Source: a virus
Virus record (IMG/VR): IMGVR_UViG_3300042564_004498
Span: 81,526-145,525 of that record
Strand: one strand, 5' to 3'
Length of the DNA stretch: 64,000 nucleotides
Part shown: positions 2,226 to 64,000 of the stretch, one piece after another
Numbering within the stretch: the stretch's first letter is position 1
Layout of the letters: each line of letters begins with the position of its first letter
Notes under the pieces: generated by a model
The model's database searches: none
Told to the model about the DNA's origin: nothing
Seen by the model: only the letters and a program-made list of their open reading frames with translations
Made by a program: the position numbers and the translations under genes

Positions 2226-2236
2226 ATATATCATTA

Positions 2237-2247
2237 TTTTAAAGAAC
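2237..2247 (-). promoter_or_regulatory. boxA-like element upstream of the tRNA pair
   Basis: Minus strand GTTCTTTAAAA. Confidence 0.5.
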
Positions 2248-2312
2248 TTCAGATAAAAAATCCCACAAGCTACAAGGGTTTTCTCAAACTCACACTTGCG
2301 GGATTTGTTTCA

Positions 2313-2344
2313 CAAAGATAGGAAAGTTTTTTTGAACTGTCAAA
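2313..2344 (-). promoter_or_regulatory. Bacteroidetes-type promoter driving the tRNA pair
   Basis: TTTG-N20-TATCTTTG followed by a hairpin at 2258-2306. Confidence 0.8.
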
Positions 2345-2495
2345 TCTTTTTTTAACCGCGAAACATTTTCTGGGGTGTTTGTCCTTTCGGACATGAACAT
2401 ATAAATATGTCCTTTTTTTTAAAAATACAATAATATTATTGAAATGTCAAATAAAAATTCAAATACTATTATGTTTTCTAAAGTATTTATTTGAT

Positions 2496-2849: not shown

Positions 2850-4258
2850 TCCTCCGAAGAATTTTTAGACTCCTCAATTTTTTTCTTTAATACTTTTTGA
2901 AATTCAGTAGCAATCATTTTTGTAAACTTAACTGATGGTGAATCATCTTTCTCAGAATCATACTTATACTTACCTTGTGGTGGTCTTTTACCTCTACCTA
3001 AATAATTAAGTCCTGAGATATTGGTAATACATTTGTGACCACCAGAATTAGACTGAATTAAATCCCAAGCATTAATACCAATTTTATCCATCAATTCAAG
3101 TTCTTGTTCAGATAATTCATTGAATGGTTTTTCCATCATTCTTTCAATTTTTCCTAAGGCTTCTTCTCCACCGTCCATGAATACAAATTTTCCACCGTAA
3201 AGAGCGTCAAAGTCTTTAAAAGTAAAACCAACACTTTCAGGTCCAGCACTTGTTTCACTAACCCATTTCATAGTTGACAAAGGAATTTTCCTATCCTTTA
3301 ATTGAGATTCCCATCTAACCAAAACTTCTTGAGCTATCTCCCCAAGATTAACCCCTTTAAGTTCTCTTTCTTTTTTAAACGGATTACAAGATGCTTGAAC
3401 AAGACCCATCGGCCAAGCCATGATAAGAAAATCCGCCTCAGGATTATTTCTGAATGGTGTATATCTGTCGTAAGACCCAGGCTTAAACATACTACCCCCA
3501 CCGTATTGAAAAATAATGTTATCAGACACTGTTGGATAGTCTGCCATTTTGTCTGCATAATCTTGTGCATTTTTTTGTAAGTCTTCAGGTTTGGCGGCAT
3601 TTGTTTTTGTCATCCAAGCTCTAATGTTATTTAGTATAGACAATAAAGAAGGTTCAGAATCCATAACCAATCCTTCTAAAAATCCTGGTTTGTTTTTAAA
3701 AGCTAAAAGTAATTTGTTTATTACTAAACCTAATAACATTTTATTCTTTTGTAATGAAGAGTCTTTATCTATTCTGTAGATATAATTAACCACTTCTTTT
3801 GGTGTAATATCATGTTTTGCATAATCCGCAGAATCCACGGTATTAATCAATAATATATCAGATGATGGGAATAAATCTGTTGGTGAAACTACTTGAGAAA
3901 TAGTCTCAACATTTGAACGAGCCCCTCTAAATTGTTTGGAGGTACCCTTTTCAACACCAACTTGTTTATCGTGATGGTCTGTGTGAATCACAAACATTGG
4001 TTTACCATGAGCAAAATCTACTAGAACAGGCATTGTATCCCCTTGAGCGTCATTCTTTTTAACCGAGAACTCCTTATCACCATATTGTATAATATGGGCA
4101 CCAACAACATCAATACCGTTGTCTTCAAGGTATTTTTTCATCGCAATCGCTGTTGTTACCCCATCAAGGTCTTGGTGAAAATAAATCTCAGCTTTTTGAT
4201 ATCTTTTCTTTAAGGCGTTGATATTTCTCAACCCTGATTCTGATATAATTCTTTTCAT
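2846..4258 (-). CDS. DHH-family phosphoesterase-like protein
   Basis: HQDLDG, VDFAHG, TDHHD, DSAD and C-terminal GGH motifs. Confidence 0.75.
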   Translation of the reverse strand: MKRIISESGLRNINALKKRYQKAEIYFHQDLDGVTTAIAMKKYLEDNGIDVVGAHIIQYGDKEFSVKKNDAQGDTMPVLVDFAHGKPMFVIHTDHHDKQVGVEKGTSKQFRGARSNVETISQVVSPTDLFPSSDILLINTVDSADYAKHDITPKEVVNYIYRIDKDSSLQKNKMLLGLVINKLLLAFKNKPGFLEGLVMDSEPSLLSILNNIRAWMTKTNAAKPEDLQKNAQDYADKMADYPTVSDNIIFQYGGGSMFKPGSYDRYTPFRNNPEADFLIMAWPMGLVQASCNPFKKERELKGVNLGEIAQEVLVRWESQLKDRKIPLSTMKWVSETSAGPESVGFTFKDFDALYGGKFVFMDGGEEALGKIERMMEKPFNELSEQELELMDKIGINAWDLIQSNSGGHKCITNISGLNYLGRGKRPPQGKYKYDSEKDDSPSVKFTKMIATEFQKVLKKKIEESKNSSED

Positions 4259-50828: not shown

Positions 50829-51671
50829 TTATTTAACCGCCTCACAAATTCCACCTTCAGAATAAGTTTGATACCCTCTTTGTTGTAACCAACTATAGAT
50901 TTCATCTTTTTTATCTTGAGGTAAATTATAATCCTCAAATATTATAAAATTTGGTAATGTAATTTTAGTTTCATCAATACCCATAATTAATTGAGCATCC
51001 AATCCTTCAACATCAAGGTGCAACCAATCTATTTGACCACCGCATTCATTTAGAATTAAGTCTGTAATACTAATTGAATCTCTTTTGGTTGAATTGATTT
51101 CTTCCGTTTCCCAATGTCTAATCACATTTTCAACAACAGTATTTGTATACCCCTCACCTCCTTCAAAAAATTCAACTTCACCACCATTTGGTGTAATTAA
51201 TTTTTGAATAGATTTAACTAATGATTTATTTTTGTAGTTATCTTTTAATTTTTGAAATTGTGTGTCGGACGCTTCAACTAATACCACATTACATTCTCTT
51301 TTTTGAACAATTGGTACCCATTCTCCAAACTCACCGTCGTGAGTCCCAATAACCAATCCTTTTGGAAACTTACCATTAGACAAAACAGATTTATTATACA
51401 TCCATAAAGATTTATAGAAATGATTTCCATGTTCCATAACATCCCATACTTTTGTGTAAATAATCCTATCTTTTGAATCCGTGATTTCAACATCAAACAT
51501 TTCAGTATTTGGGTAAGACCCAAACCAATTATCATTTAATTTGGTAGACCATTGTACCTCACCGCTAACATGTTTTTTTATTTTTAATTTTAAAGGTAAA
51601 TTTTGATTATATTTATTAATCTGACCAACATTAACCCTAATACCTTCTGAATTGTATGTTACTGTAATCAT
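50829..51671 (-). CDS. FkbM-like SAM-dependent methyltransferase with N-terminal beta domain
   Basis: VIGTHDG, VLVEA, IDWLHLDVEGLD, IIFE. Confidence 0.75.
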   Translation of the reverse strand: MITVTYNSEGIRVNVGQINKYNQNLPLKLKIKKHVSGEVQWSTKLNDNWFGSYPNTEMFDVEITDSKDRIIYTKVWDVMEHGNHFYKSLWMYNKSVLSNGKFPKGLVIGTHDGEFGEWVPIVQKRECNVVLVEASDTQFQKLKDNYKNKSLVKSIQKLITPNGGEVEFFEGGEGYTNTVVENVIRHWETEEINSTKRDSISITDLILNECGGQIDWLHLDVEGLDAQLIMGIDETKITLPNFIIFEDYNLPQDKKDEIYSWLQQRGYQTYSEGGICEAVK

Positions 51672-52216
51672 TTTTTATGTTTTTCTATAAAATGGTTTAT
51701 ATCTTGACTCCACAGTACCATGGCTTCTTCTTTGATTTTACTTTCTTCCCAATCCCACCAAGCAATATCTAGTAGGTTTTTAATTTGTTCTTCCTCAAAT
51801 CTATATTTTATATGTTTTGCAGGATTTCCACCAACAACAGAATAAGGTTCAACATCTTTGGTAACCAATGCACCCGCGGCAACAATTGCCCCATGTCCAA
51901 TTTTAATTCCCGACATTATTGTCGCTTTCGCACCAACCCAAACATCACTACCAACCGTAATATTACCTTTACAAGATGGATGGCCCATCTCCATGTGCAT
52001 ACTTGCAATCTCAGGAGTAACCGGTCCCCATAATTGAGAACTTGTTGTTATCCAATCAGGTCTATGATTTGCGTGTAAGAAGAAATTACAATCTCTTCCA
52101 ATGGAACAATATTTCCCAACATGAATTTCATACTCATTACTCCAAGAAATTATGTTGACATTCCTATCGTAATAAGTTCCTCTATCTGATTTCCATAAAT
52201 GTATATTCTCTATCAT
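51668..52216 (-). CDS. Hexapeptide-repeat O-acetyltransferase (CatB/Vat-like)
   Basis: VGKYCSIG, NH, VGSDVWVG..GIKIGHGAIVAAGALVTKDV..VGGNPAK..RF, WWDW. Confidence 0.85.
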   Translation of the reverse strand: MIENIHLWKSDRGTYYDRNVNIISWSNEYEIHVGKYCSIGRDCNFFLHANHRPDWITTSSQLWGPVTPEIASMHMEMGHPSCKGNITVGSDVWVGAKATIMSGIKIGHGAIVAAGALVTKDVEPYSVVGGNPAKHIKYRFEEEQIKNLLDIAWWDWEESKIKEEAMVLWSQDINHFIEKHKK

Positions 52217-53127
52217 GATTTTATAAATGTGTTTTCTCCAATATTATTTACATGATGGCTTAAATCAAATGTTTCACCATCATTTGTGATAATTAATTCA
52301 TCTGTATTTAAAAATGGTAATTCAATTTCATCCCATTCCCTAACTTCATAATTATTTTCAAACGAATCTGTTTTAACATTAAAATGTTTTATTCCACCAA
52401 AATCATAGAAAACAATTTTCATATTATCTGTCAGAGTTTTATGAATGAAACATTTAAATTTATTGGATGGAGAACAATTAAAAAAATCTTTATTTGATAG
52501 GAGATATATTAAATCTTCAATAGGTTGTTCTTCTATTACACCTGGTATTAATTTTACCGCTCTATGTAACCACGAAAAAGCGTCAAAATCACTTTCCACT
52601 AAATAACTTTCTTTGGTTATTAACATTTTAAATTTAATCAAATGTTCCCTATCCAACGAGATTAAATGTAAACCAATTGCCCAAGTCATACCATCTCTGT
52701 AAGAAGGGAAAAAACTATTTTTTTTATTGTCATTAAAAACTGATTCAACGTATGGTGTAATGTTTATATCATATATCATTGGGAAAAATATTTCGTAGTC
52801 CATTGATAAAGCAAAATCTGCCATTCTTTTAAATTGTAATAATCCCGCATATCCGTAATCCGGATATGTTGTTGTCATGGTGAGGTTAACTCCATTAAAA
52901 TTACCGGTCCACCACTGAAAATAAGACTTTTCAGGCCAATTTAACACCGGATTTTCTTTTGAAAATATTGCATAATCACAAAGTTCAATAACTTCATCAT
53001 TTAATTTTAAAGGACTTATTATCATTACATCAACACCTAATGATTTTATTTTTTTTATATTTTCAATTAATAAATCAAGTTTTTCTTGATTATCACAAAA
53101 AGTACTTATCAATGCGATTTTTTTCAT
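52213..53127 (-). CDS. Putative glycosyltransferase-like protein (paralog family, copy 1)
   Basis: N-terminal pattern and xYD motif shared with three nearby paralogs. Confidence 0.5.
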   Translation of the reverse strand: MKKIALISTFCDNQEKLDLLIENIKKIKSLGVDVMIISPLKLNDEVIELCDYAIFSKENPVLNWPEKSYFQWWTGNFNGVNLTMTTTYPDYGYAGLLQFKRMADFALSMDYEIFFPMIYDINITPYVESVFNDNKKNSFFPSYRDGMTWAIGLHLISLDREHLIKFKMLITKESYLVESDFDAFSWLHRAVKLIPGVIEEQPIEDLIYLLSNKDFFNCSPSNKFKCFIHKTLTDNMKIVFYDFGGIKHFNVKTDSFENNYEVREWDEIELPFLNTDELIITNDGETFDLSHHVNNIGENTFIKS

Positions 53128-53139
53128 TATTTTGTTTTT

Positions 53140-54138
53140 TTAAGTATAAATTGTATAATTTGTTTTTTTAAAAATTTCTCGTAAATTCTTATCAAATTTT
53201 ATTTCATTTTTCTTTTTTCCATTAACTAATGTGATTATTGAATCAATATTGTTAATATCACCAATTTCATCCATTTTCCATTCAAATTTATTAACTTCTT
53301 TAAATGTTATAATTTTTTCATTGTTAACAATAAAATTAACATTTATTGGTTCGTCATCTTTGTTGTTCCAAACTATTACAGAAACTTTATTTTCTTTTGT
53401 GTTATAAAATGGGACTGTCCAATAATTCATAGTTTCTTTAGAAGTATTATTAGATAATGCAAATTTTATATCTTTTAATTTAACATGGTCATAATTTTTA
53501 ATATGAATGGTATTACCATTCATATTCATAATGTCATTTGTAATTTTTTCATTAGTTTTTGATGTACTATTAAATAAAATTTCTAATAATTTTTCTTTAT
53601 CGTAAGATGTTAATAATTCATTTATTGAATCCACTTTGAATGACATGAAATTACCAATAGGCCATGCAATGTTTTCTTCATAACCCCTTTCTTCTTTTTG
53701 AATAACAACATTATCATATTCATCCAACAATTTTGAATTATCATATAATTCCGATAAATCATTCATAATTGTATCATACTCAATATAATGTACCTTTTTG
53801 TATTTAAACATTTTTGCAAATCCTAATCCTGCCGTAACCAATCTATAAACTGCCAAATATGTACTATTTTGACCGATATATGTTGATAGGATAGTCATTC
53901 CTTCAATTGGTGAAAACCAAGGTTGGTTTAGATATTTCAAATCAGTAATTAAATCATTATTCTTATCATAAAAAACATAATCAACTTTTTTAGTAATATA
54001 TGATGGTATTTCAGTATGACTACAAATTAAAATATCATATTCATTACGACATTTTTGTAGTGAATTAACACACTCATTTAATAGGGATTCTCTCTCGTCA
54101 TCGGGACAATGTGCACCAATTAAAATTAATTCTTTCAT
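53140..54138 (-). CDS. Putative glycosyltransferase-like protein (copy 2)
   Basis: KVDYVFYDKNN, YKKVHYIEYD; start reassigned to MKELIL. Confidence 0.55.
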   Translation of the reverse strand: MKELILIGAHCPDDERESLLNECVNSLQKCRNEYDILICSHTEIPSYITKKVDYVFYDKNNDLITDLKYLNQPWFSPIEGMTILSTYIGQNSTYLAVYRLVTAGLGFAKMFKYKKVHYIEYDTIMNDLSELYDNSKLLDEYDNVVIQKEERGYEENIAWPIGNFMSFKVDSINELLTSYDKEKLLEILFNSTSKTNEKITNDIMNMNGNTIHIKNYDHVKLKDIKFALSNNTSKETMNYWTVPFYNTKENKVSVIVWNNKDDEPINVNFIVNNEKIITFKEVNKFEWKMDEIGDINNIDSIITLVNGKKKNEIKFDKNLREIFKKTNYTIYT

Positions 54139-54139
54139 A

Positions 54140-54718
54140 TTATTTAATTTTTTTTGCAGGGCATCCAACATAAACACCACCCTCTTCAATGTGTTTAACA
54201 ACTGCGGAGTTCATACCAATCGTAGCTAAACTATGAACTGATAACTTTTCTCGTATTGATGAGTTACTACCCATATAAACTAAACTATAAATTGTAACAT
54301 TACCTGAAACAATTGCACCAGGCATTGCACTAAAATAATCTCCAATTCTACAATCGTGTCCAATGTGATTACCCCTATTTAATATTGAATGTTTCCCTAT
54401 TTTTATATTTGTTGTGAGTATTGAATAAGCCCCAACAAAACTTCCCTCCCCAATTTCAACATCTTCCATTATTAATGCGGTTGGATGTATAAAAGTGAAA
54501 AATTGAATCCCCTCGGGTAATCTTTGTGAAATGTCAAATCTATCTTTAGAATCTGAAATTGCAATCATTACAATGTGTTTGGTAGGGTCTAATTTAGACA
54601 AGGGTTGTGTATCATCATCAACATATTGTTCATCAACAAATCGGTCTAATTTACACCCCATTTGAGCCATAACTTCTCTCGCATGACCCCCATTTCCAAT
54701 TAATACTTTTATCATCAT
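54140..54718 (-). CDS. NeuD/PglD-type sugar acetyltransferase
   Basis: IGNGGHAREV, FIHPTA, IGHD, hexapeptide repeats, VGCPAK. Confidence 0.9.
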   Translation of the reverse strand: MMIKVLIGNGGHAREVMAQMGCKLDRFVDEQYVDDDTQPLSKLDPTKHIVMIAISDSKDRFDISQRLPEGIQFFTFIHPTALIMEDVEIGEGSFVGAYSILTTNIKIGKHSILNRGNHIGHDCRIGDYFSAMPGAIVSGNVTIYSLVYMGSNSSIREKLSVHSLATIGMNSAVVKHIEEGGVYVGCPAKKIK

Positions 54719-55329
54719 AATTTTTTAATTATTTTACGATAGTTTGAATATAATTCAGTAATATAATCCGCAAAAGTTAACATAAAATAGTCCACCGATT
54801 CTTTTGGTCTCAAAGTAGTTGTTCTATCTAATCCCCAAGTATAGTCATCAAAAATAAGAATACCCCCTTTTTTTAATACCCCCCAAGACATTATACTATC
54901 CATCATAACATATGGGGCGGTGTGATTACCATCAATAAAAATTATATCATACATTTTTTGTTCCGTAATTAAAGATGGTAAAATCTTATTAGAAAACCCT
55001 TGTCGTATAATAACTTTATCACTATCACCACTTTCAATAATATTATGTAAAAATATTTCTTTAGTTTTTCTCTCGGTTAACATCCATTCATTGTCTTCGT
55101 TATTATAGGAATTTAAACTATCATGGTCTTGACTATAATTCATCCAAGGGTCAACACAAGTAATGGTTGAATTTTTATTTTGTAAAATATTATCCAAAAA
55201 CCATATGGTTGATTTTCCTTCAAAAGAACCAACTTCAAGAATGTGTAATTCTTTTTTAACCCCTAATTCATTTAAAATTGATAGCCCGTCATCGTTAAAC
55301 CAATTTTCTGTAAAAGTATAATTTTTCAT
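54715..55329 (-). CDS. Class I SAM-dependent methyltransferase (Methyltransf_24-like)
   Basis: LEVGSFEGKS, CVDPW, IFIDGNH, GGILIFDDY. Confidence 0.85.
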   Translation of the reverse strand: MKNYTFTENWFNDDGLSILNELGVKKELHILEVGSFEGKSTIWFLDNILQNKNSTITCVDPWMNYSQDHDSLNSYNNEDNEWMLTERKTKEIFLHNIIESGDSDKVIIRQGFSNKILPSLITEQKMYDIIFIDGNHTAPYVMMDSIMSWGVLKKGGILIFDDYTWGLDRTTTLRPKESVDYFMLTFADYITELYSNYRKIIKKL

Positions 55330-55970
55330 TTTTTGTAAATTTCGTATTTTGATAAGTCAGGATATGGTAATTCTAAATCCTCATTATGTTTTTTAGTTCC
55401 GTCTAAATTATAAAATTGTGTCATCATTAATATCCCTCTTGCCGATAACTCAGGCATCATATAGAAATTCCATCCTAACATATCAAAGTTGTCATCATGA
55501 TATGAACATTCTCTTCTTCCGCTAAATCTTGCTCGTTTAAACCATAACATCGCTTGATAATCATCGGTTAAAATCGCGCCACCTTTACTTAATTTTAAAG
55601 TTTTATATGGGCCTGTGAATGAAACACACATATGTGATTTTGGGACATACATGTCAGCTGTGAATCTTAACGCTGAGTCCCAAACATTACTTGGCGATAG
55701 TTCGTAAGCCCCTTTAATCTTATCACCCTCAACCGGTGTAAAATTAACTTTTAACCCTGCGTGAATTATTTCACATGGTACCGATGGATATGTCTTTGAT
55801 GGACAATCTATGGTATCACCAGTTAATGTTTTCTTTATATTCTTTTCGTAGTATAACGCTAAGAATAATGCGTTACTCATATTATCTAACGCAATTGCGT
55901 GAGGAGCTCCTGTGTAATCGCATAATGCTTTCTCAAAATCTTCAGTTATTTTATGTACTCCTTGTGCCAT
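55326..55970 (-). CDS. DegT/DnrJ/EryC1/StrS-family sugar aminotransferase, short form
   Basis: FEKALCDYTG, TYPSVP..IIHAG, DSA, SFTGPYKTL..GGAILTDD, GWNFYM. Confidence 0.8.
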   Translation of the reverse strand: MAQGVHKITEDFEKALCDYTGAPHAIALDNMSNALFLALYYEKNIKKTLTGDTIDCPSKTYPSVPCEIIHAGLKVNFTPVEGDKIKGAYELSPSNVWDSALRFTADMYVPKSHMCVSFTGPYKTLKLSKGGAILTDDYQAMLWFKRARFSGRRECSYHDDNFDMLGWNFYMMPELSARGILMMTQFYNLDGTKKHNEDLELPYPDLSKYEIYKK

Positions 55971-55972
55971 TT

Positions 55973-56929
55973 TTAATTAATTGTATTCTTATTAATATAA
56001 ATATTTTTATCTGTTTTATTAAAATCTATTGAATTTCTTAGTGTATTGTTAACTAATATTATAATACTTTGAATACTGTCAATATCACCAATATCTCTTA
56101 AAATCCAATAACCAGGTTTTACCGTGTAATTAAGTATAATTGAATCATTAACAATTAGTTTAATTTCCATATTTTTTATTTCATCTTGACCCCAAGAAAA
56201 TAATACCATCTTTTTTGAATTATTATCATAAACAGGCACCACCCATTGGTATTCCGTAATATCACTATTTAATTGTATTTTTACTCCAATATTTTCTAAA
56301 AGTTTCATGTCTTTTGTTAAAACATTATCACTTTCATTTATTAACCCCATGTGATATTCTTCTGCGGCATTTGTCATATCACCATTAAAATAATTCATTA
56401 ATTTTTCTTTTGATGTATTAAACCATGAATCCGATATTTTCAATAAATTATATGAAACTGGCGCGGTTGGATACGAAAAATGTTTCCATTTATACCAAAT
56501 GATTGGGTGTATGTCTAAAAGTTTAGAATTGTCTTTAATTTCAATATCACTTTTAATTTCGCAATCGTACTCAAAAAAATGGACTTTAACATAATCTAAA
56601 TTTTTTGCGCTTTTTAATCCAAATAAAAGTAATCTTAAGCACGTAAACCCATGATTATATTTTTTACATTCAGTTGTCTTAACAGTAAAATCACTATTAG
56701 CGAAAACCATCTTATATTTTGACTTAATATCAGTTAATAACAAATTTTCCTTTTCATAAACAATGTAGTCCACTTTATCCGAAATATCTTGTGGAACAAA
56801 CGAATGTGTTGCAATCATAATATCAAATTCATCATTATTAATATCATTAACTAAAGTTCTTAATAATTCTTGTCTTTTGTTATCAGGAGAATAATTTAAT
56901 ATTAAAATCAATTCTTTATTTTTTTCCAT
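55973..56929 (-). CDS. Putative glycosyltransferase-like protein (copy 3)
   Basis: KVDYIVYEKEN, NHG, YVKVHFFEYD. Confidence 0.55.
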   Translation of the reverse strand: MEKNKELILILNYSPDNKRQELLRTLVNDINNDEFDIMIATHSFVPQDISDKVDYIVYEKENLLLTDIKSKYKMVFANSDFTVKTTECKKYNHGFTCLRLLLFGLKSAKNLDYVKVHFFEYDCEIKSDIEIKDNSKLLDIHPIIWYKWKHFSYPTAPVSYNLLKISDSWFNTSKEKLMNYFNGDMTNAAEEYHMGLINESDNVLTKDMKLLENIGVKIQLNSDITEYQWVVPVYDNNSKKMVLFSWGQDEIKNMEIKLIVNDSIILNYTVKPGYWILRDIGDIDSIQSIIILVNNTLRNSIDFNKTDKNIYINKNTIN

Positions 56930-56930
56930 G

Positions 56931-57941
56931 TTAATGAAAGTCAATTACGTTTATTATGTCCTTAAAATATTCTTCAAATAATAGTTCATCTCTATCATAT
57001 ACTAACATTTTTTCAACATTATTTGGTAAAGCGATATATGACCAAGCCCCATATGACCCAAATTCTTGAATTATTTCTTTTTCAGTACCATCATTAAATT
57101 TAACAAGTATTCTTCTAAAGTCAGGTTCTGATTTTACATTTTTACTATAAATCACAATCTCATCAGGATGGTCTTGTTTTAAATAAAATTTTGTTACACA
57201 TTCTTTATATTTTTTATCATCATAAACTCTAGTTTGTTTTGTATTCCAAAGAGTACTATCAAATTCAGTAAAAAATCCTTCTTTAATATAAATCTCATTA
57301 GGATTTAATTTTTTAACATTTTCATACATGAATCTTTCCATTATTAAAAAATCACGATTACCAAATTCTGATTCTAAAAAATTAATATAATCTTGTTCGC
57401 AAGTTATATTCGAAAAATTATCTAAGAAATAATCAATCTCACAGAAAAAATAATGTACTGACATTGATGAATGGTCCCCATGATTATCAACAAAAAAAAC
57501 ACCCTTTTTACCACTTAAAATACATTCATCATTTAATCCTTTAATTTTAATTTTAGTTTTTTCAGTTAATCTAGCGTCATATTCCATTTTATAAAAATGA
57601 GTATAACCCAACTCTTTAGCCATTCTAACCGAACGAAATAAACTAATTAAAACAGATAATCCATGGTTTTGAGTATGAGGAAAACAATTTGAAACTTTAA
57701 ACCAATCGTACTGTGTCCAATAGTTTACATAATCATATTTTGAATATTTTTCTTTGAATAATTGATTTTTTTTATCATAGAAAAAATAATCAACTTTATC
57801 TTGAACTTCTTTTGAAGTTGTTGTATTAGACATTAATAATAAATCGTCACCTATTGTTTTAACCGAATCAATAAAATTTATTAAGATACCTTCTTCTTGT
57901 TTGTCAGTAACAAATGCATCTAAAATTATTATTGGTCTCAT
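56931..57941 (-). CDS. Putative glycosyltransferase-like protein (copy 4)
   Basis: KVDYFFYDKKN, NHGLSV, YTHFYKMEYD. Confidence 0.55.
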   Translation of the reverse strand: MRPIIILDAFVTDKQEEGILINFIDSVKTIGDDLLLMSNTTTSKEVQDKVDYFFYDKKNQLFKEKYSKYDYVNYWTQYDWFKVSNCFPHTQNHGLSVLISLFRSVRMAKELGYTHFYKMEYDARLTEKTKIKIKGLNDECILSGKKGVFFVDNHGDHSSMSVHYFFCEIDYFLDNFSNITCEQDYINFLESEFGNRDFLIMERFMYENVKKLNPNEIYIKEGFFTEFDSTLWNTKQTRVYDDKKYKECVTKFYLKQDHPDEIVIYSKNVKSEPDFRRILVKFNDGTEKEIIQEFGSYGAWSYIALPNNVEKMLVYDRDELLFEEYFKDIINVIDFH

Positions 57942-58009
57942 TATTTTTTAGTTAGTATTTGAAATATAGACAATATCCCCTATATTTCAACTAAAATAAT
58001 CACATAATA

Positions 58010-60283
58010 ATGAAGAAAATATTTGCACATGGTTCTTACATTGGGAACACAGGTTATAATCAACATACAAGAGACTTTTTTAGACATTTATCAAAACATG
58101 CCCAGATAAAAGTTAGAAATTTTACTGTAGGTAGTTCTTGGGATGGGATAAGTCCTGAACCACATAATAACGAGCCGTATTTTAACGATACAGATAGAAA
58201 ATTACTGTACGAACAAATCCTTTGGAATACAGATAAAACAAGAGGTAATCATAAAATTTATGAAGACCCATCAAAAGATTTTTTCCCTGATGTTAACATT
58301 GTATTATGTGAAACAAACCACCATTTATTTTACGATGAATATTATGGACCAAAAATTGCATATAATGTTTGGGAATCCACATTACAACCTGAAGGTTATT
58401 TCAACAAATTAAAAGAATTTGATGAATTATGGGTACCATCAAAATGGCAAAGAGATTGTACTATCTCTCAAGGTTATGACCCAAGTAAAATTAAAGTTGT
58501 TCCTGAAGGTGTTGATGTTAATACTTTCTTTCCTGAAGATACTTCACATGAATTAACCTCAGATGGAAGATTTAAATTCTTTTTAGCAGGTAGATGGGAT
58601 TATAGAAAATCAATTAAAGAAATTATTGAGACATTTCTTAAAACTTTTGATAAAGATGAACCAGTTGATTTAATTATTTCTGTTGATAACCCATTTTCAG
58701 GTGATGGTATGAAAACTACGGAAGAAAGATTAGAACATTACGGATTAAACGATGACAGAATTAAAATATTACATTTCCCTCCAAGAGAAGAATATATTAA
58801 AATATTAAAATCTTGTGACGCGTTTGTATCATGTGCAAGGTCTGAAGGATGGAACCTACCACTTATTGAAGCGATGGCTTGTGGTACACCATCTATCTAT
58901 TCAAACTGTTCAGGTCAATTAGAATTTGCTGAAGGTAAAGGTTTACCCGTTAAAATTGTGGGTGAAAAACCAGTTGATGCCAGTACCTATAGTCATTTTA
59001 ACGATTCTATTGGAAACTACTACGAACCTGACTTTAATGATTTAGGTAAACAGATGTGGAATGTAGTTACTAATCACCAACACTATAAACAAATAGCATT
59101 AGAAGAATCTGAAATTATTAGAAAAGAATTTAATTGGGAACATGTTGCAGAAATTGGGATAAAAACAATTAACGAATTTTTGGAAAAAACTCTTAAAGTT
59201 GAGGACACTAATAAAACAATAATTACTTACTTTGATGGACCAAGAGTTGAAATTAAAGGTAATCACAATAATAAATACTTTGTTGAATTTATTGATGGTG
59301 AAGGTAAAGTTAGATTTTCAGACACCATAACCAACAATATGTGGACTTCTTGTGGTATAAAATATTATGTTCCATGGACAATTAAAATAAATGGTAAAGT
59401 TGTTGAAAATTTTAGTTTAGACAATAAAAAAGTTTTAATCAGATTTGAATCCAAATCAATTGGTGATACTATTGCTTGGTCACCATATGCAGTTGAGTTA
59501 ATGAAACAAAGAAATTGTAAGGTAGTATTATCAACTTTTCATAATGAATGGTTCAAAGGTTTAGATTCATATAAAAATATTGAATTTATTAATCCAGGAC
59601 ATTCTTCAGATTGTGACGTTATCTATAAATTAGGATGGTTTAAAGATGATAAAACAGGATGGAAAAGATTTGATATGCACCCAAATCAAGTAAACTTAAT
59701 TCCCCTACAAAAAACAGCAACAGATATTTTAGGTTTAGATTTCAAAGAAATTAATCATGGTGTTAATTTCAAATTATCTAAAAGACCAATAAAAAACAAA
59801 TATGTTGTATTTGGTCCACAATCAACTGCCGGTTGTAAAGAATGGGTTTTAGAAAATTGGATAACATTATCTAAAATGTTAAAAGAAATTGGTTATGAAA
59901 TTATGATATTATCCCTTAATGATTATAAAATAGATGGAGTACATGTTAACACAACTAAAGATTGGAATGAAGTTATGAATTGTTTATATCATTCAGAATT
60001 TTTTGTAGGTTTAAGTTCGGGACTATCTTGGGTTAATTGGTCATTAAATAAAAAAACAGTTATGATATCAGGTTTTAGTGAAGATAGTCATGAATGTCAA
60101 ACCAATGTGACACGAGTATCAAATAATGTTTGTATTAAATGTTGGAATGACCCTGTATTAGTATTTAATCCTGGTGATTGGGATTGGTGTCCTGTTTATA
60201 AAAACACCGAAAGACAACATATTTGTCAAAAATCAATAACGCCTCTACAAGTATTTAACTCATTACCAATAATTAAAGATTAA
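58010..60283 (+). CDS. Fusion of a GT4-family glycosyltransferase and an AAH/TibC-like protein O-heptosyltransferase domain
   Basis: N-half VPEGVD, SEGWNLPLIEAMACGTP; C-half SKSIGDTIAW, STAGCKEW, FVGLSSGLSW..VMISGFS and four-Cys CIKCWN..WCP..C. Confidence 0.85.
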   Translation: MKKIFAHGSYIGNTGYNQHTRDFFRHLSKHAQIKVRNFTVGSSWDGISPEPHNNEPYFNDTDRKLLYEQILWNTDKTRGNHKIYEDPSKDFFPDVNIVLCETNHHLFYDEYYGPKIAYNVWESTLQPEGYFNKLKEFDELWVPSKWQRDCTISQGYDPSKIKVVPEGVDVNTFFPEDTSHELTSDGRFKFFLAGRWDYRKSIKEIIETFLKTFDKDEPVDLIISVDNPFSGDGMKTTEERLEHYGLNDDRIKILHFPPREEYIKILKSCDAFVSCARSEGWNLPLIEAMACGTPSIYSNCSGQLEFAEGKGLPVKIVGEKPVDASTYSHFNDSIGNYYEPDFNDLGKQMWNVVTNHQHYKQIALEESEIIRKEFNWEHVAEIGIKTINEFLEKTLKVEDTNKTIITYFDGPRVEIKGNHNNKYFVEFIDGEGKVRFSDTITNNMWTSCGIKYYVPWTIKINGKVVENFSLDNKKVLIRFESKSIGDTIAWSPYAVELMKQRNCKVVLSTFHNEWFKGLDSYKNIEFINPGHSSDCDVIYKLGWFKDDKTGWKRFDMHPNQVNLIPLQKTATDILGLDFKEINHGVNFKLSKRPIKNKYVVFGPQSTAGCKEWVLENWITLSKMLKEIGYEIMILSLNDYKIDGVHVNTTKDWNEVMNCLYHSEFFVGLSSGLSWVNWSLNKKTVMISGFSEDSHECQTNVTRVSNNVCIKCWNDPVLVFNPGDWDWCPVYKNTERQHICQKSITPLQVFNSLPIIKD

Positions 60284-60312
60284 AAAAAAAGGGACTTAGA
60301 GTCCCTTTTTTT
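60283..60312. terminator. Bidirectional terminator between converging genes
   Basis: A-run GGGACT-TAG-AGTCCC T-run. Confidence 0.8.
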
Positions 60313-63300
60313 ATATTATTGCTTTATATTCTAATAATACTTTTTCAACATCTTTACGTTCTGCATATATTAAGTAGAACACATTAATATTATCACAAGT
60401 ACTATCAATGAATACTTTATTATCTTTAACTTCAACTACATAGTTTTCACAAGGATATCCTATTGATGTTAAGTTTACCGTAAAACTATCTTCGTGGACT
60501 AATCCAATCCAATAATCAGGTAATTCAATTACTTTATCAGTTGCTTTACCTCTAAAATAAACTCCATGTTCTGGTCCCTCTAATACACCGTATCTTAATC
60601 TATACCCCTCTTTTGTTGGGTGGGGAATGTCAAATGATTTTGACGCCGCTGTTAATGCTCCTGTTATTGCAGTATCACCAGTAACTCTTAAAGTACTTCC
60701 ATCAAACCTTAAATTAACCTCACCATTAATAACACCTGATGTTCCAGTTGCAGTTATTACGTAATTGTCAACATTATTTAAAATAGTTGCAGAACCTGAT
60801 GTTCCTGACGAACCACTTGAACCGCTAGTTCCTGACGAACCTGATGAACCTGATGTACCACTTGAACCTGAAGAACCTGATGTACCACTTGAACCAGATG
60901 TTCCTGATGAACCAGATGTTCCTGAAGAACCGCTTGAACCGCTAGTTCCTGATGAACCTGATGTACCGCTTGAACCTGATTTACCTGAAGAACCACTTGA
61001 ACCTGAAGTTCCTGAAGAACCACTTAAACCTGATGTACCGCTTGAACCTGAACTTCCGCTAGTTCCTGACGAACCACTTGAACCGCTAGTTCCTGACGAA
61101 CCACTTGAACCGCTAGTTCCTGAAGAACCTGATGTACCGCTTGAACCTGATTTACCTGAAGAACCACTTGAACCTGAAGTTCCTGATGAACCAGATGTTC
61201 CTGAAGAACCACTTGAACCTGAACTTCCGCTAGTTCCTGAAGAACCGCTCGAACCTGATGTTCCTGATGAACCTGATGTACCGCTTGAACCAGATGTTCC
61301 TGATGAACCGCTTGAACCTGAAGTTCCTGAAGAACCACTTGAACCGCTAGTTCCTGAAGAACCTGATGTACCGCTTGAACCTGATTTACCTGAAGAACCA
61401 CTTGAACCTGAAGTTCCTGAAGAACCACTTGAACCTGAAGTTCCTGAAGAACCGCTTGAACCTGAAGTTCCTGATGAACCGCTTGAACCGCTAGTTCCTG
61501 ATGAACCTGATGTACCACTTGAACCAGATGTTCCTGATGAACCAGATGTTCCTGAAGAACCGCTTGAACCTGATGTACCGCTTGAACCTGAACTTCCGCT
61601 AGTTCCTGACGAACCACTTGAACCTGATGTACCGCTTGAACCTGATGTACCACTTGAACCAGATGTTCCTGATGAACCAGATGTTCCTGAAGAACCGCTT
61701 GAACCGCTAGTTCCTGATGAACCTGATGTACCACTTGAACCAGATGTTCCTGATGAACCAGATGTTCCTGAAGAACCGCTTGAACCGCTAGTTCCTGAAG
61801 AACCTGATGTTCCTGATGAACCTGATGTACCGCTTGAACCAGATGTTCCTGAAGAACCGCTTGAACCGCTAGTTCCTGATGAACCTGATGTACCGCTTGA
61901 ACCTGATTTACCTGAAGAACCGCTTGAACCTGAAGTTCCTGATGAACCACTTGAACCTGAAGTTCCTGAAGAACCACTTGAACCTGAAGTTCCTGAAGAA
62001 CCACTTGAACCTGAAGTTCCTGAAGAACCACTTGAACCTGATGTACCGCTTGAACCTGATGTACCGCTTGAACCAGATGTTCCTGATGAACCAGATGTTC
62101 CTGAAGAACCGCTTGAACCTGAAGTTCCTGAAGAACCACTTGAACCGCTAGTTCCTGAAGAACCTGATGTACCACTTGAACCAGATGTTCCTGATGAACC
62201 AGATGTTCCTGAAGAACCACTTGAACCTGATGTACCGCTTGAACCAGATGTTCCTGATGAACCGCTTGAACCTGAAGAACCGCTTGAACCTGAAGTTCCT
62301 GAAGAACCACTTGAACCTGATGTACCGCTTGAACCTGAACTTCCGCTAGTTCCTGACGAACCACTTGAACCGCTAGTTCCTGAAGAACCTGATGTACCAC
62401 TTGAACCAGATGTTCCTGATGAACCAGATGTTCCTGAAGAACCGCTTGAACCGCTAGTTCCTGAAGAACCTGAACTTCCGCTAGTTCCTGATGAACCTGA
62501 TGCACCGCTTGAGCCAGAGGTTCCTGAAGAACCTGATGAACCGCTTGAACCTGAACTACCACTAGTTCCAGAAGAACCATCTGTACCGTCAATACCTGAA
62601 CAACCTGTTACTCCACTAGTTCCTGATGAACCGCTTGAACCTGATGTTCCTGAAGAACCGCTTGAACCGCTAGTTCCTGATGAACCACTTGAACCAGATG
62701 TTCCTGAAGAACCTGATGTACCTGAACTTCCGCTAGTTCCTGAAGAACCGCTTGAACCGCTAGTTCCTGATGAACCTGAACTTCCGCTAGTTCCTGAAGA
62801 ACCACTTGAACCAGATGTTCCTGAAGAACCTGAACTTCCGCTAGTTCCTGAAGAACCGCTAGTTCCTGAAGAACCTGATGTACCTGAACTTCCGCTAGTT
62901 CCTGACGAACCACTTGAACCGCTAGTTCCTGAAGAACCACTTGAACCGCTAGTTCCTGAAGAACCACTTGAACCTGATGTTCCTGAAGAACCTGATGTAC
63001 CTGAACTTCCGCTAGTTCCTGAAGAACCGCTTGAACCGCTAGTTCCTGAAGAACCACTTGAACCAGATGTTCCTGAAGAACCTGAACTTCCGCTAGTTCC
63101 TGAAGAACCACTTGAACCGCTAGTTCCTGAAGAACCACTTGAACCGCTAGTTCCTGAAGAACCACTTGAACCGCTAGTTCCTGAAGAACCACTTGAACCT
63201 GATGTTCCTGAAGAACCACTTGAACCGCTAGTTCCTGAAGAACCGCTTGAACCGCTAGTTCCTGAAGAACCGCTTGAACCGCTAGTTCCTGATGAACCTG

Positions 63301-64000
63301 AACTTCCGCTAGTTCCTGAAGAACCACTTGAACCGCTAGTTCCTGAAGAACCTGATGTACCGCTTGAACCAGATGTTCCTGATGAACCTGAACTTCCACT
63401 AGTTCCTGAAGAACCGCTTGAACCGCTAGTTCCTGAAGAACCTGATGTACCGCTTGAACCAGATGTTCCTGAAGAACCTGAACTTCCGCTAGTTCCTGAA
63501 GAACCTGATGTACCGCTTGAACCAGATGTTCCTGAAGAACCGCTTGAACCGCTAGTTCCTGAAGAACCGCTTGAACCGCTAGTTCCTGAAGAACCGCTTG
63601 AACCGCTAGTTCCTGAAGAACCGCTTGAACCGCTAGTTCCTGATGAACCGCTTGAACCTGATGTTCCTGAAGAACCGCTTGAACCGCTAGTTCCTGATGA
63701 ACCACTTGAACCAGATGTTCCTGAAGAACCTGATGTACCTGAACTTCCGCTAGTTCCTGAAGAACCGCTTGAACCGCTAGTTCCTGATGAACCTGAACTT
63801 CCGCTAGTTCCTGAAGAACCACTTGAACCAGATGTTCCTGAAGAACCTGAACTTCCGCTAGTTCCTGAAGAACCGCTAGTTCCTGAAGAACCTGATGTAC
63901 CTGAACTTCCGCTAGTTCCTGACGAACCACTTGAACCGCTAGTTCCTGAAGAACCACTTGAACCGCTAGTTCCTGAAGAACCACTTGAACCTGATGTTCC
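60311..64000 (-). CDS. Giant Gly-Ser-Thr repeat fibre protein (5' end outside window, at least 1229 aa) with C-terminal chaperone-like domain
   Basis: True frame reads ..GTSGSSGSSGTS..GSATILNNVDNYVITATG..KSFDIPHPTKEGYRLRYGVLEGPEHGVYFRG..IELPDYWIGLV..AERKDVEKVLLEYKAII*; frame spot-checked at both ends and at interruptions, no stop found. Confidence 0.88.
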   Translation of the reverse strand, partial: GTSGSSGSSGTSGSSGSSGTSGSSGSSGTSGSSGTSGSSGTSGSSGTSGSSGSSGTSGSSGSSGTSGSSGSSGTSGSSGSSGTSGSSGTSGSSGTSGSSGSSGTSGSSGSSGTSGSSGSSGTSGSSGSSGTSGSSGSSGTSGSSGSSGTSGSSGSSGTSGSSGTSGSSGTSGSSGSSGTSGSSGTSGSSGTSGSSGSSGTSGSSGSSGTSGSSGTSGSSGTSGSSGSSGTSGSSGSSGTSGSSGSSGTSGSSGSSGTSGSSGSSGTSGSSGSSGTSGSSGSSGTSGSSGSSGTSGSSGSSGTSGSSGSSGTSGSSGSSGTSGSSGSSGTSGSSGTSGSSGTSGSSGSSGTSGSSGSSGTSGSSGSSGTSGSSGTSGSSGTSGSSGTSGSSGSSGTSGSSGSSGTSGSSGSSGTSGSSGSSGTSGSSGTSGSSGTSGSSGSSGTSGSSGSSGTSGSSGSSGTSGVTGCSGIDGTDGSSGTSGSSGSSGSSGSSGTSGSSGASGSSGTSGSSGSSGTSGSSGSSGTSGSSGTSGSSGTSGSSGTSGSSGSSGTSGSSGSSGTSGSSGSSGTSGSSGSSGSSGSSGTSGSSGTSGSSGSSGTSGSSGTSGSSGTSGSSGTSGSSGSSGTSGSSGSSGTSGSSGTSGSSGTSGSSGTSGSSGSSGTSGSSGSSGTSGSSGSSGTSGSSGSSGTSGSSGSSGKSGSSGTSGSSGTSGSSGSSGTSGSSGTSGSSGTSGSSGTSGSSGSSGTSGSSGTSGSSGTSGSSGTSGSSGSSGTSGSSGTSGSSGTSGSSGTSGSSGSSGTSGSSGSSGTSGSSGSSGTSGSSGTSGSSGTSGSSGTSGSSGSSGTSGSSGSSGTSGSSGSSGTSGSSGSSGKSGSSGTSGSSGTSGSSGSSGTSGSSGSSGTSGSSGTSGSSGTSGSSGSSGTSGSSGSSGSSGTSGSSGTSGSSGSSGKSGSSGTSGSSGTSGSSGSSGTSGSSGSSGTSGSSGSSGTSGLSGSSGTSGSSGSSGKSGSSGTSGSSGTSGSSGSSGTSGSSGTSGSSGTSGSSGSSGTSGSSGSSGTSGSSGSSGTSGSATILNNVDNYVITATGTSGVINGEVNLRFDGSTLRVTGDTAITGALTAASKSFDIPHPTKEGYRLRYGVLEGPEHGVYFRGKATDKVIELPDYWIGLVHEDSFTVNLTSIGYPCENYVVEVKDNKVFIDSTCDNINVFYLIYAERKDVEKVLLEYKAII
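60794..64000. repeat. 9-bp unit tandem repeat (~356 units) encoding GSS/GTS
   Basis: Plus-strand units such as tgaagaacc, gcttgaacc, gctagttcc, agatgttcc. Confidence 0.95.

What the first reader, a model, noticed from the sequence alone, without database searches (positions are those of the whole stretch)
60311..64000. Hidden giant ORF: about 356 consecutive Gly-X-Y triplets made almost only of Ser/Thr, without Pro
The ORF track shows only shadow frames (QELAVQ...). The real frame has Gly at every third position from 60794 to the window edge, almost all GSS or GTS with rare GKS/GAS/GLS. This is collagen periodicity without the Pro or charged residues that normally stabilise bacterial and phage collagens. 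Glycosylation could supply that stability, or the chain may form a polyglycine-II bundle. At the collagen rise (~0.29 nm/residue) the visible part alone would span roughly 300 nm. It ends in a KSFDIPHP..EGPE..YFRG domain of the type seen at phage fibre C-termini (probable trimerisation or autocleaved chaperone).
Basis: partly seen in the sequence, partly recalled or inferred. Interest (0 to 1): 0.8.

Follow-up and report, generated by a model that had tools for sequence, protein, structure and literature searches.

The report
Proline-free collagen-like phage fibre, probably sugar-coated
The end of this giant-phage contig holds the last 1,229 codons of a virion fibre gene built from over 300 Gly-Ser/Thr-Ser triplets, next to an enzyme of the family that attaches sugars to serines of bacterial adhesins, so the phage probably makes a sugar-coated collagen-like filament that nobody has tested at the bench.

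Summary
The minus-strand frame 60311-64000 is open. It reads 357 consecutive Gly-X-Y triplets (216 GSS, 130 GTS, no Pro, 6 charged residues), then a 158-residue C-terminal part.

Two caveats. The window ends at the contig end, and the last 368 bases exactly repeat 62616-62983. Only about 316 triplets are therefore uniquely assembled, and the start of the gene is missing.

- **Real gene family:** closed ORFs in other viral contigs have 289-925 such triplets and the same C-terminal domain.
- **C-terminal domain:** it has no Pfam model, yet 11,458 cluster representatives match it, always at the protein's end. Its fold resembles distal knobs of phage fibres and tailspikes.
- **Neighbouring gene:** the convergent 757-residue gene fuses a GT4 transferase to a TibC/Aah-type protein O-heptosyltransferase. 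It scores above the curated cut-off, and the catalytic Asp and the four iron-finger Cys are conserved. The pairing recurs in relatives and, with a different fibre C-terminus, in Microcystis phage Mel-JY01.
- **Sugar supply:** the same phage record has ADP-heptose pathway-like genes.

Best reading: an O-glycosylated, proline-free collagen-like virion fibre. The triple helix and the glycosylation are both inferred. This scan noted the same pairing in at least eight other genomes. New variant of a known kind.

The parts
60788..64000 (-). Collagen-type repeat: 357 Gly-X-Y triplets (X = Ser 61% / Thr 37%, Y = Ser 99%). It is open at the contig end. 63633-64000 is an exact copy of 62616-62983.
60641..60787 (-). 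Neck after the repeat (motif NNVDNYVITATGT..GE.NLRFDGSTL.VTG). The same motif follows the repeats in other fibres, including one with a different C-terminal domain (L017).
60314..60640 (-). Conserved C-terminal 'HPTK' domain of about 109 aa (K..F.I.HPTK...L....EG....Y.RG ... ERK....E). Stop codon at 60311-60313. It is beta-rich, and residues 80-150 of the modelled segment resemble distal knobs of phage fibres and tailspikes.
60284..60312 (.). Bidirectional intrinsic terminator hairpin (A-run, GGGACT..AGTCCC, T-run) shared by the two convergent genes
58010..59224 (+). N-terminal half of the 757-aa glycosyltransferase: GT4 (GT-B) domain
59225..60283 (+). C-terminal half: TibC/Aah-type protein O-heptosyltransferase (BAHT, TIGR04414). 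D486 aligns with TibC D110. C708/C711/C727/C739 align with the iron-finger Cys339/342/358/370.
50829..57941 (-). Context, sugar-tailoring genes: an FkbM methyltransferase, two hexapeptide acyltransferases (one with a weak, sub-threshold PglD N-terminal hit), a Methyltransf_24 protein, a DegT-like protein, and three paralogous proteins of about 330 aa with no family match.
47978..50515 (-). Context: 845-aa virion structural protein with a ConA-like lectin domain (Laminin_G_3). Homologues lie just downstream of HPTK-domain fibre genes in many other phages.

Best explanation
This is the 3' part of a gene for a very long virion fibre of a large, low-GC uncultured phage.

**Shaft.** It is a proline-free, nearly uncharged collagen-type repeat, (Gly-Ser/Thr-Ser)n.

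**C-terminus.** A conserved neck and a beta-sandwich domain follow. They most likely bring three chains into register, so that the shaft zips up from the C-terminus towards the N-terminus, and they form the distal end of the fibre.

**Glycosylation.** In the infected cell's cytoplasm, the adjacent convergent enzyme attaches sugars to the Ser/Thr hydroxyls, above all the almost invariant Y-position Ser. That enzyme fuses a TibC/Aah-type protein O-heptosyltransferase to a GT4 domain. The first sugar is probably heptose from phage-made ADP-heptose. The GT4 domain and the neighbouring sugar-tailoring genes then extend or modify it.

**Role of the glycan.** It would do what proline, hydroxyproline and salt bridges do in other collagens: stiffen the chain and stabilise the helix. 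It would also shield the fibre from proteases.

**Shown:** the frame and repeat, the homology of the C-terminal domain, the identity of the enzyme family, and the recurring gene pairing.

**Inferred:** that the fibre is the enzyme's substrate, the nature of the sugar, the triple helix, the trimer, and where the fibre sits on the virion.
For: **The gene**
- Open frame with 357 G-X-Y triplets and codon-level signs of selection on the protein.
- PF01391 Collagen scores 485.5 bits.

**Relatives**
- Closed full-length relatives exist in independent metagenome contigs, with 289-925 triplets, no Pro and the same C-terminal domain. One is a 3,488-aa ORF in the 735-kb phage LR756501.
- X and Y positions differ consistently across relatives: X = S/T/I/V, Y = S/D/N/A. 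That points to a defined structural environment rather than a random spacer.

**C-terminal domain**
- phrog_17490 at 3.5e-39, and phage 'tail fiber-like protein' hits.
- 11,458 representatives match at E <= 0.001, and in all 150 listed hits the match lies at the protein's C-terminus.
- Best fold matches are C-terminal parts of phage tailspikes and fibres. The top one is 7eea_A (Z 8.1, rmsd 2.0, 65 residues aligned), followed by AP22 gp53 and the R2 pyocin fibre.

**The enzyme**
- TIGR04414 scores 205.4 and 207.6 bits against a cut-off of 200.
- TibC (PDB 4RAP) matches at E 4.8e-33, with the catalytic Asp and all four iron-finger Cys aligned.
- It is the only such gene in the record.

**The pairing**
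- The TibC-like gene sits convergent, mostly about 50 nt beyond the fibre stop (further in some loci), in L003-L020, L022 and L029, at 36-78% identity. tblastn at E 1e-3 finds it in none of about 45 loci whose HPTK protein lacks such repeats.
- Independently, Microcystis phage Mel-JY01 has a (G-T/S-S)n ORF with an unrelated C-terminus 1.7 kb from a TibC-like domain.

**Sugar supply**
- HldC-, HldA- and HldD-like genes lie in the same record.

**Literature**
- (Gly-Pro-Thr)10 is a random coil but becomes triple-helical when galactosylated, and collagen folds from a C-terminal nucleus (PMC11923368).
Against: - No experiment or structure prediction here shows a trimer, a triple helix or any glycan.
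- The repeat has neither imino acids nor KGE/KGD-type salt bridges, the stabilisers documented for collagens. A stable triple helix is therefore not assured.
- Some relatives replace Gly by Ala, Lys, Asn or Arg every 7-10 triplets (L018, L023, L029, L039). That would interrupt a collagen helix.
- TibC's known substrates are beta-helical autotransporter passengers, not collagen-like chains.
- No TibC-like gene was detected near the fibres of L021, L023, L027, L028 or L039, partly because flanks are short. In LR756501 it lies 180 kb from the 3,488-aa fibre.
- The heptose-pathway hits are all below their curated cut-offs.
- The fold match at Z 8.1 is within the range the tool calls common for unmatched models.
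- The repeat length at the contig edge is partly an assembly loop.
Confidence: 0.55

Rival explanations
1. Same gene and same glycosylation, but the shaft is not a collagen triple helix. Instead it is a mucin-like, heavily O-glycosylated extended chain (a 'bottle-brush' tether), or some other glycine-dependent fold such as polyglycine-II packing. The C-terminal domain still holds three chains together.
For: - No Pro and almost no charged pairs, so the known collagen stabilisers are absent.
- Non-Gly triplets recur regularly in some relatives.
- Ser/Thr make up about two thirds of the residues, as in mucin domains, and a dedicated Ser-glycosylating enzyme lies next door.
Against: - Gly is kept at every third residue through 357 triplets here and up to 925 in relatives with different codon patterns. 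X and Y also differ consistently. A disordered spacer needs neither.
- No turn-forming breaks exist that would allow a compact polyglycine-II bundle.
- Repeat homogenisation by recombination could mimic part of this regularity, so the argument is not decisive.
Confidence: 0.25
2. The fibre is real but is not the substrate of the neighbouring enzyme. The TibC-like/GT4 protein and the sugar genes would instead modify another phage protein, the host envelope or lipopolysaccharide (for superinfection exclusion), or DNA.
For: - Phage glycosyltransferases are usually read as agents of host-surface or DNA modification (PMC7029224; PMC10202952).
- The GT is not adjacent to the fibre in every relative.
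- The same record has another fibre with its own sugar cluster.
Against: - TIGR04414 is a family of protein O-heptosyltransferases that hyperglycosylate serines of repeat proteins, not lipid or DNA enzymes.
- The tight convergent pairing with Gly-Ser/Thr fibres holds across 36-78% identity, and it recurs with an unrelated fibre C-terminus in Mel-JY01.
- tblastn finds it in none of about 45 loci whose HPTK protein lacks such repeats.
Confidence: 0.1
3. Assembly artefact or non-coding simple repeat: the long open frame is a by-product of a 9-nt DNA repeat that short-read assembly has inflated.
For: - The contig ends inside the repeat, and its last 368 nt duplicate an internal stretch.
- Near-identical contigs disagree in repeat number and show frameshifts.
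- Two other frames are also largely open.
Against: - Many independent assemblies have closed ORFs with start, repeat and homologous C-terminal domain in one frame.
- Synonymous Ser codons from both codon families are used, and there are only 10 distinct tripeptides in this frame.
- The frame is continuous with a domain that has thousands of homologues.
- Only the repeat number is doubtful, not the existence of the gene.
Confidence: 0.03

Closest known systems
BclA of the Bacillus anthracis exosporium and the Riftia cuticle collagen (collagen helices with glycosylated Thr)
   Same: - Gly-X-Y repeats with a hydroxyl residue in the Y position that carries O-linked sugar.
- A C-terminal globular domain at the tip.
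- Glycosylation stands in for hydroxyproline as the stabiliser (PMC11923368; details of BclA and Riftia are from established knowledge).
   Different: - Those repeats are Gly-Pro-Thr or otherwise Pro-rich. Here there is no Pro at all, and Y is Ser rather than Thr.
- The repeat is several times longer.
- The C-terminal domain is the phage 'HPTK' domain.
- The candidate transferase belongs to the TibC/Aah family.
TibC-TibA and Aah-AIDA-I of E. coli (bacterial autotransporter heptosyltransferases, BAHT; TIGR04414; PDB 4RAP/4RB4)
   Same: - The enzyme half scores above the curated cut-off and keeps the catalytic Asp and the four iron-binding Cys.
- It is encoded next to a highly repetitive Ser-rich protein that would be hyperglycosylated in the cytoplasm.
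- ADP-heptose pathway-like genes are at hand.
   Different: - It is encoded by a phage and fused to a GT4 domain.
- The neighbouring candidate substrate is a collagen-like fibre, not a beta-helical autotransporter passenger.
- Oligomeric state and sugar donor are untested.
Collagen-like phage tail fibres ('Bacteriophage collagen', Smith et al. 1998; P-SSM2 orf028; E. coli prophage EPclA)
   Same: Gly-X-Y runs in phage fibre genes. Cyanophage P-SSM2 orf028 was already described as Gly-X-Y in which X and Y are often Pro, Ser or Thr (PMC1079782).
   Different: Known examples contain Pro and/or many charged residues (EPclA: Pro in X and about 22% charged residues). They are far shorter, and none has been linked to a dedicated protein glycosyltransferase.
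Virion O-glycosylation of mycobacteriophages (Freeman et al. 2023, as cited in PMC12619734)
   Same: Phage-encoded glycosyltransferases decorate the phage's own virion proteins.
   Different: There the glycans sit on C-terminal extensions of capsid and tail-tube subunits. The enzymes are from other families, and no collagen-like acceptor is involved.

Membership tests
Collagen triple-helix repeat proteins (Pfam PF01391) | Gly at every third residue over many consecutive triplets, with a score above the Pfam gathering threshold | tested here: met
   357 consecutive triplets. PF01391 scores 485.5 bits against a cut-off of 27.2.
Collagen triple-helix repeat proteins (Pfam PF01391) | Known stabilisers of the helix: Pro/Hyp in X/Y, or KGE/KGD-type interchain salt bridges | tested here: not met
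   0 Pro and 6 charged residues among 714 X/Y positions. The stabilisers are as described in PMC11923368.
Collagen triple-helix repeat proteins (Pfam PF01391) | Three chains wound into a triple helix | not testable with these tools
This needs CD, protease resistance or EM.
Bacterial autotransporter heptosyltransferases (BAHT; TIGR04414 hepto_Aah_TibC) | Score at or above the curated equivalog cut-off (200 bits) | tested here: met
   205.4 bits for residues 406-751. 207.6 bits in the six-frame search of the record. TibC 4RAP matches at E 4.8e-33.
Bacterial autotransporter heptosyltransferases (BAHT; TIGR04414 hepto_Aah_TibC) | Catalytic Asp (TibC D110) and four iron-finger Cys (339, 342, 358, 370) | tested here: met
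   D486 and C708/C711/C727/C739 align with them (alignment; TibC residue numbers from PMC4358343).
Bacterial autotransporter heptosyltransferases (BAHT; TIGR04414 hepto_Aah_TibC) | Partner substrate is an autotransporter adhesin with a beta-helical passenger | tested here: not met
   The adjacent repeat protein is a collagen-like phage fibre. No autotransporter was seen in the window ORFs that were scanned.
Bacterial autotransporter heptosyltransferases (BAHT; TIGR04414 hepto_Aah_TibC) | Uses ADP-heptose as donor | tested here: inconclusive
   HldC-, HldA- and HldD-like genes are in the same record. All score below their curated cut-offs: 104 of 181.5, 133 of 345 and 182 of 274.6 bits. Donor specificity cannot be read from sequence.
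Phage fibre C-terminal 'HPTK' domain (phrog_17490 / phrog_28536; no Pfam model) | Significant match to the family profile, located at the extreme C-terminus | tested here: met
   phrog_17490 at 3.5e-39 and phrog_28536 at 7.8e-33. There are 20 invariant columns among 38 diverse members. 11,458 representatives match at E <= 0.001, and in all 150 listed hits the match is C-terminal.
Intramolecular chaperone / autocleaving C-terminal domain of phage fibres (Peptidase_S74) | Match to the Pfam model | tested here: not met
   No Pfam family matched the C-terminal 179 aa at E <= 0.01. No PDB sequence match was found.

The most novel reading that the evidence does not exclude
These phages build filaments hundreds of nanometres long from a collagen triple helix with no imino acids and no salt bridges. 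The helix is held together only by dense O-glycosylation, which a phage-borne TibC-type enzyme installs on nearly every Y-position serine. That would be a third, purely glycan-based way of stabilising collagen, and a new class of virion post-translational modification.
Probability: 0.35. Interest if true: 0.8.

Novelty: new variant of a known kind. Interest (0 to 1): 0.62.

Why it matters
**For collagen biophysics.** This is a natural test of whether glycosylation alone can hold a triple helix together. The repeat is hundreds of triplets long and lacks both proline and charge pairs, which current folding models treat as the stabilisers.

**For phage biology.**
- It would extend virion glycosylation, shown so far for mycobacteriophage capsid and tail-tube proteins, to fibres of large aquatic phages.
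- It would give a phage role to an enzyme family known only from bacterial adhesin glycosylation.
- A sugar-coated fibre hundreds of nanometres long could change how these phages find hosts, resist proteases and stick to particles.

**For annotation.** Such genes are easily mis-annotated. In the GenBank record of Microcystis phage Mel-JY01, shadow frames are annotated in place of the fibre gene. The C-terminal domain has over 11,000 cluster representatives and still no Pfam family.

Tried and rejected
- **Trimer prediction.** Complex prediction (three copies of the C-terminal part) was not available. Nothing was learned about trimerisation.
- **Extending the gene.** The window ends at the contig end. 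The other contig end has no repeat, and the record has no other G-X-Y run.
- **Structure searches with the C-terminal part.** The PDB sequence search gave nothing meaningful. Foldseek against the PDB gave no match at E <= 0.001. Only the wider VIA search gave fibre and tailspike knobs, at Z 5-8.
- **The repeat finder on the array.** The output was uninformative. A custom script then found the 368-nt terminal duplication.
- **First try for the heptose cluster.** I fetched the wrong stretch and corrected it.
- **Protein-database searches.** They returned very few Gly-Ser/Thr architectures among the top hits (3 of 120, 3 of 142). Yet about a third of the best 80 DNA loci have them. I could not decide whether this reflects gene-calling failures on the repeat or ranking bias.
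- **Literature.** Searches for phage plus heptosyltransferase/TibC/collagen, and for Mel-JY01, found no paper describing this system. The held library lacks most subscription journals.
- **Rejected readings.** The polyglycine-II bundle and the autocleaving chaperone were considered but left without positive evidence.


Full report
**Observation**

With open ends allowed, the minus strand of 60311-64000 is one open frame of 1,229 codons. It begins, at the window edge, with 357 uninterrupted Gly-X-Y triplets (60788-64000): 216 GSS, 130 GTS, 4 GKS and seven singletons. X is Ser (61%) or Thr (37%), and Y is Ser in 99% of triplets. There is no proline and there are six charged residues.

This is the coding frame, for four reasons:
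- It is the only stop-free minus-strand frame.
- It has 10 distinct tripeptides and an amino-acid entropy of 1.49 bits, against 15-32 tripeptides and 2.2-3.1 bits in the other five frames.
- Ser is written with both TCN (407) and AGY (163) codons, and Gly with GGT (235) and GGA (121), with no non-Gly codon at 357 Gly positions.
- It continues in phase into a 158-residue non-repeat end that has strong homologues.

Pfam's Collagen model scores the ORF at 485.5 bits.

**Limits of the assembly**

The window is the last 64 kb of a 145,525-bp IMG/VR virus record that CheckV rates about 48% complete. The gene's 5' part is therefore missing. The other contig end holds no repeat, and the record has no second G-X-Y run.

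The last 368 nt (63633-64000) are an exact copy of 62616-62983. This looks like an assembler re-entering a loop, so about 316 triplets are uniquely placed. Near-identical contigs from other samples differ in repeat number or carry frameshifts inside the repeat (L007, L010, L011, L012). The gene is real, but its exact length is not known.

**A family, not a one-off**

A scan of viral contigs with the C-terminal part found 561 relatives. Among the best 80 loci, roughly a third carry Gly-Ser/Thr repeats. Several are closed ORFs inside contigs:

| Locus | ORF length (aa) | Triplets |
|---|---|---|
| L017 | 1,072 | 289 |
| L021 | 1,658 | 465 |
| L010 | 2,059 | 574 |
| L004 | 2,735 | 705 |
| L018 | 3,352 | 892 |
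| L027 | 3,278 | 925 consecutive |

The 735-kb phage LR756501 has a 3,488-aa ORF with 848 triplets and the same end.

These proteins have short N-terminal parts (about 45-300 aa) and one to three repeat blocks separated by small globular inserts. A neck motif follows, then the conserved C-terminal domain. Proline is absent or nearly absent throughout, and the X/Y asymmetry is kept (X = S/T/I/V, Y = S/D/N/A). Some relatives replace Gly by Ala, Lys, Asn or Arg every 7-10 triplets.

**The C-terminal domain**

No Pfam or NCBIfam model matches it, and neither does any PDB sequence. It does match phrog_17490 (3.5e-39) and phrog_28536. It is 57% identical to the end of the 'putative tail fiber-like protein' of Flavobacterium phage immuto, a 587-aa protein without collagen repeats. 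It is also found in many Synechococcus and Prochlorococcus myophages.

An alignment of 38 diverse members has 20 invariant columns, including K..F.I.HPTK, EG, Y.RG and ER. A profile search of 1.84 billion cluster representatives found 11,458 members at E <= 0.001 and 2,538 at E <= 1e-30. In all 150 listed hits the match lies at the extreme C-terminus.

The AlphaFold2 monomer is beta-rich and confident over residues 60-165 of the modelled segment (mean pLDDT 76.7). Foldseek found nothing at E <= 0.001. The wider structural search put C-terminal parts of phage tailspikes and fibres on top:
- Cyanophage Pam1 tailspike 7eea_A: Z 8.1, rmsd 2.0, 65 residues aligned.
- AP22 gp53, Z 6.4.
- R2 pyocin fibre, Z 6.0.
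- K64-1 depolymerase.
- The Oekolampad receptor-binding protein.

The top Z is borderline by the tool's own calibration, so I read it only as 'distal knob-like'.

This domain is conserved across phages of unrelated hosts, while the parts upstream of it vary freely. I therefore favour a role in assembly, as a registration and trimerisation nucleus, or as a dock for a partner, over a role as the host-specific binder. This is inference.

One possible partner is a ConA-like (Laminin_G_3) structural protein, here at 47978-50515. Homologues lie 0-5 kb downstream of the HPTK-domain gene in 18 of the viral-contig loci and in phage immuto.

**The neighbour**

The 757-aa gene 58010-60283 is convergent with the fibre gene. 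The two share a bidirectional terminator at 60284-60312.
- Its N-terminal half is a GT4 glycosyltransferase.
- Its C-terminal half (406-751) matches TIGR04414, 'autotransporter strand-loop-strand O-heptosyltransferase' (Aah/TibC), at 205.4 bits. The curated equivalog cut-off is 200 (207.6 bits).
- It matches TibC (PDB 4RAP) at E 4.8e-33.
- In that alignment D486 lies on TibC's catalytic D110. C708, C711, C727 and C739 lie on the four iron-finger cysteines 339, 342, 358 and 370 (TibC residues from PMC4358343).

TibC and Aah are cytoplasmic enzymes that hyperglycosylate serines of repetitive adhesin passengers with heptose. This is the only such gene in the 145-kb record.

The same record also carries HldC-, HldA- and HldD-like genes, which are ADP-heptose pathway enzymes. 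These are best hits but below the curated cut-offs.

Between the transferase and the other large structural genes lie several sugar-tailoring genes:
- an FkbM methyltransferase;
- two hexapeptide acyltransferases (one with a weak PglD N-terminal hit);
- a Methyltransf_24 protein;
- a DegT-like protein.

**Linkage of fibre and enzyme**

The TibC-like half is found convergent and mostly about 50 nt beyond the fibre stop in L003-L020, L022 and L029, at 36-78% identity. In L017 and L029 it lies about 3-4 kb away. It appears either alone or as the GT4 fusion. tblastn at E 1e-3 finds it in none of about 45 loci whose HPTK-domain protein has no Gly-Ser/Thr repeat. These loci are related to one another, so this is not a statistical proof.

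An independent case removes the shared C-terminal domain as a confounder. Among 50,697 phage records only four hold a TibC-like gene. One is the cultured Microcystis phage Mel-JY01. There the domain ends a 1,226-aa multi-domain protein annotated as 'methyltransferase FkbM'. About 1.7 kb upstream lies an open frame of at least 1,016 aa, running off the record start, that reads (G-T/S-S)n and has an unrelated C-terminus. GenBank annotates shadow frames on the opposite strand in its place.

There are counter-examples. No TibC-like gene was detected near the fibres of L021, L023, L027, L028 or L039, in part because the flanks are short. In LR756501 it lies 180 kb from the giant fibre, next to a smaller G/S/T-rich ORF.

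**How it most likely works**

- Shown: the gene, its repeat, the family of its C-terminal domain, the family of the enzyme next door, and their recurrent pairing.
- Inferred: the enzyme glycosylates the fibre's Ser/Thr hydroxyls in the cytoplasm. Three chains are registered by the neck and HPTK domain and zip from the C-terminus to the N-terminus into a collagen-type helix. The glycan supplies the stability that proline and salt bridges give elsewhere.

The literature supports the plausibility. Collagens fold from a C-terminal nucleus. (Gly-Pro-Thr)10 is a random coil until its threonines are galactosylated. Thr-containing triplets are over-represented in bacterial and viral collagens, and KGD/KGE salt bridges are otherwise the common stabiliser (13% KGD in viral collagens). 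The present protein lacks those salt bridges (PMC11923368).

In BclA, the Riftia collagen and animal collagens, glycosylation falls on the Y position (established knowledge). Here Y is the almost invariant Ser.

At 0.286 nm per residue, the uniquely assembled repeat would span about 270 nm and the full assembled repeat about 306 nm. That holds only if the shaft is a triple helix.

**Rivals**

The main rival keeps the gene and the glycosylation but denies the helix. It proposes a mucin-like glycosylated tether or another glycine-dependent packing. The lack of known stabilisers and the periodic non-Gly triplets in some relatives support it. The strict Gly periodicity and the X/Y asymmetry speak against it.

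A second rival has the enzyme acting on something other than the fibre. A third treats the repeat as an artefact; that affects only the repeat count.

**Known or new**

Collagen-like repeats in phage fibres have been known since 1998. Cyanophage P-SSM2 orf028 was described in 2005 as Gly-X-Y rich in Pro, Ser and Thr (PMC1079782). Glycosylated collagen-like fibres are known from Bacillus exosporia, and phage virion glycosylation from mycobacteriophages (Freeman et al. 2023, as cited in PMC12619734).

I found no paper in the held library that describes proline-free Gly-Ser/Thr fibres of this length, or a phage TibC-type enzyme. This scan has already flagged the same fibre-plus-TibC pairing in at least eight other genomes, and on this same stretch. 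Those notes agree with what I tested here.

I class it as a new variant of a known kind. It is of solid but not exceptional interest until glycosylation or the helix is shown at the bench.

Noticed in passing
L086 (Microcystis phage Mel-JY01, PP395634.1) 1-3052: GenBank annotates two minus-strand 'hypothetical proteins' (1-651 and 739-2298, reading PEVPRVPLVPELP...). These look like shadow frames. The plus-strand frame 2-3052 is open for at least 1,016 aa, runs off the record start, and reads (G-T/S-S)n with a globular C-terminus. The real fibre gene therefore seems to be mis-annotated and split by the record's start point.
   Followed up: partly
window 47978-50515 (-), and loci L002, L024, L036, L038, L043, L045, L052, L057, L064, L068, L069: A ConA-like lectin (Laminin_G_3) structural protein lies 0-5 kb downstream of the HPTK-domain fibre gene in 18 of the viral-contig loci and in Flavobacterium phage immuto. 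In the window, the sugar-gene cluster 50829-60283 separates the two, as if it had been inserted between them. This protein may be a tip partner of the HPTK domain.
   Followed up: partly
L017 1-4446 (+): Directly upstream of the HPTK-type fibre gene lies a second Gly-Ser/Thr-Ser/Asp fibre gene. It is at least 1,481 aa long and open at the contig start. It has the same neck motif (NSNVDNFVLTATGTAGTIQGE) but a different C-terminal domain. More fibre genes may therefore lie beyond the window's contig end.
   Followed up: no
L089 16750-20343 (+) (LR756501): The 735-kb phage that carries a 3,488-aa Gly-Ser/Thr fibre also has, 4 kb downstream, a 1,198-aa collagen-like ORF of the classical Pro-rich kind (G 28%, P 22%, T 15%, 257 consecutive triplets). 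Both collagen types thus coexist in one phage.
   Followed up: no
G000:C1:28500-42500 (about 39-53 kb before the window start): A second fibre gene (1,263 aa, genome 36626-40417, minus strand) is flanked by HldC-, HldA- and HldD-like genes, a radical SAM gene and other sugar-related genes. This is a second fibre-plus-glycan cluster in the same phage. Only the heptose-pathway genes were checked here.
   Followed up: partly
window 53140-54201, 55973-56944 and 56931-57941 (-): Three paralogous proteins of 323-353 aa, with no Pfam or PHROG assignment, sit inside the sugar-gene cluster. They are conserved in L016, L019, L020 and L022. They are candidates for unrecognised glycan-modifying enzymes.
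   Followed up: no
window 60001-64000: GC content rises from about 0.30 across the window to 0.41-0.48 in the repeat, purely because of the Gly and Ser codons. This could mislead composition-based calls of foreign DNA.
   Followed up: no
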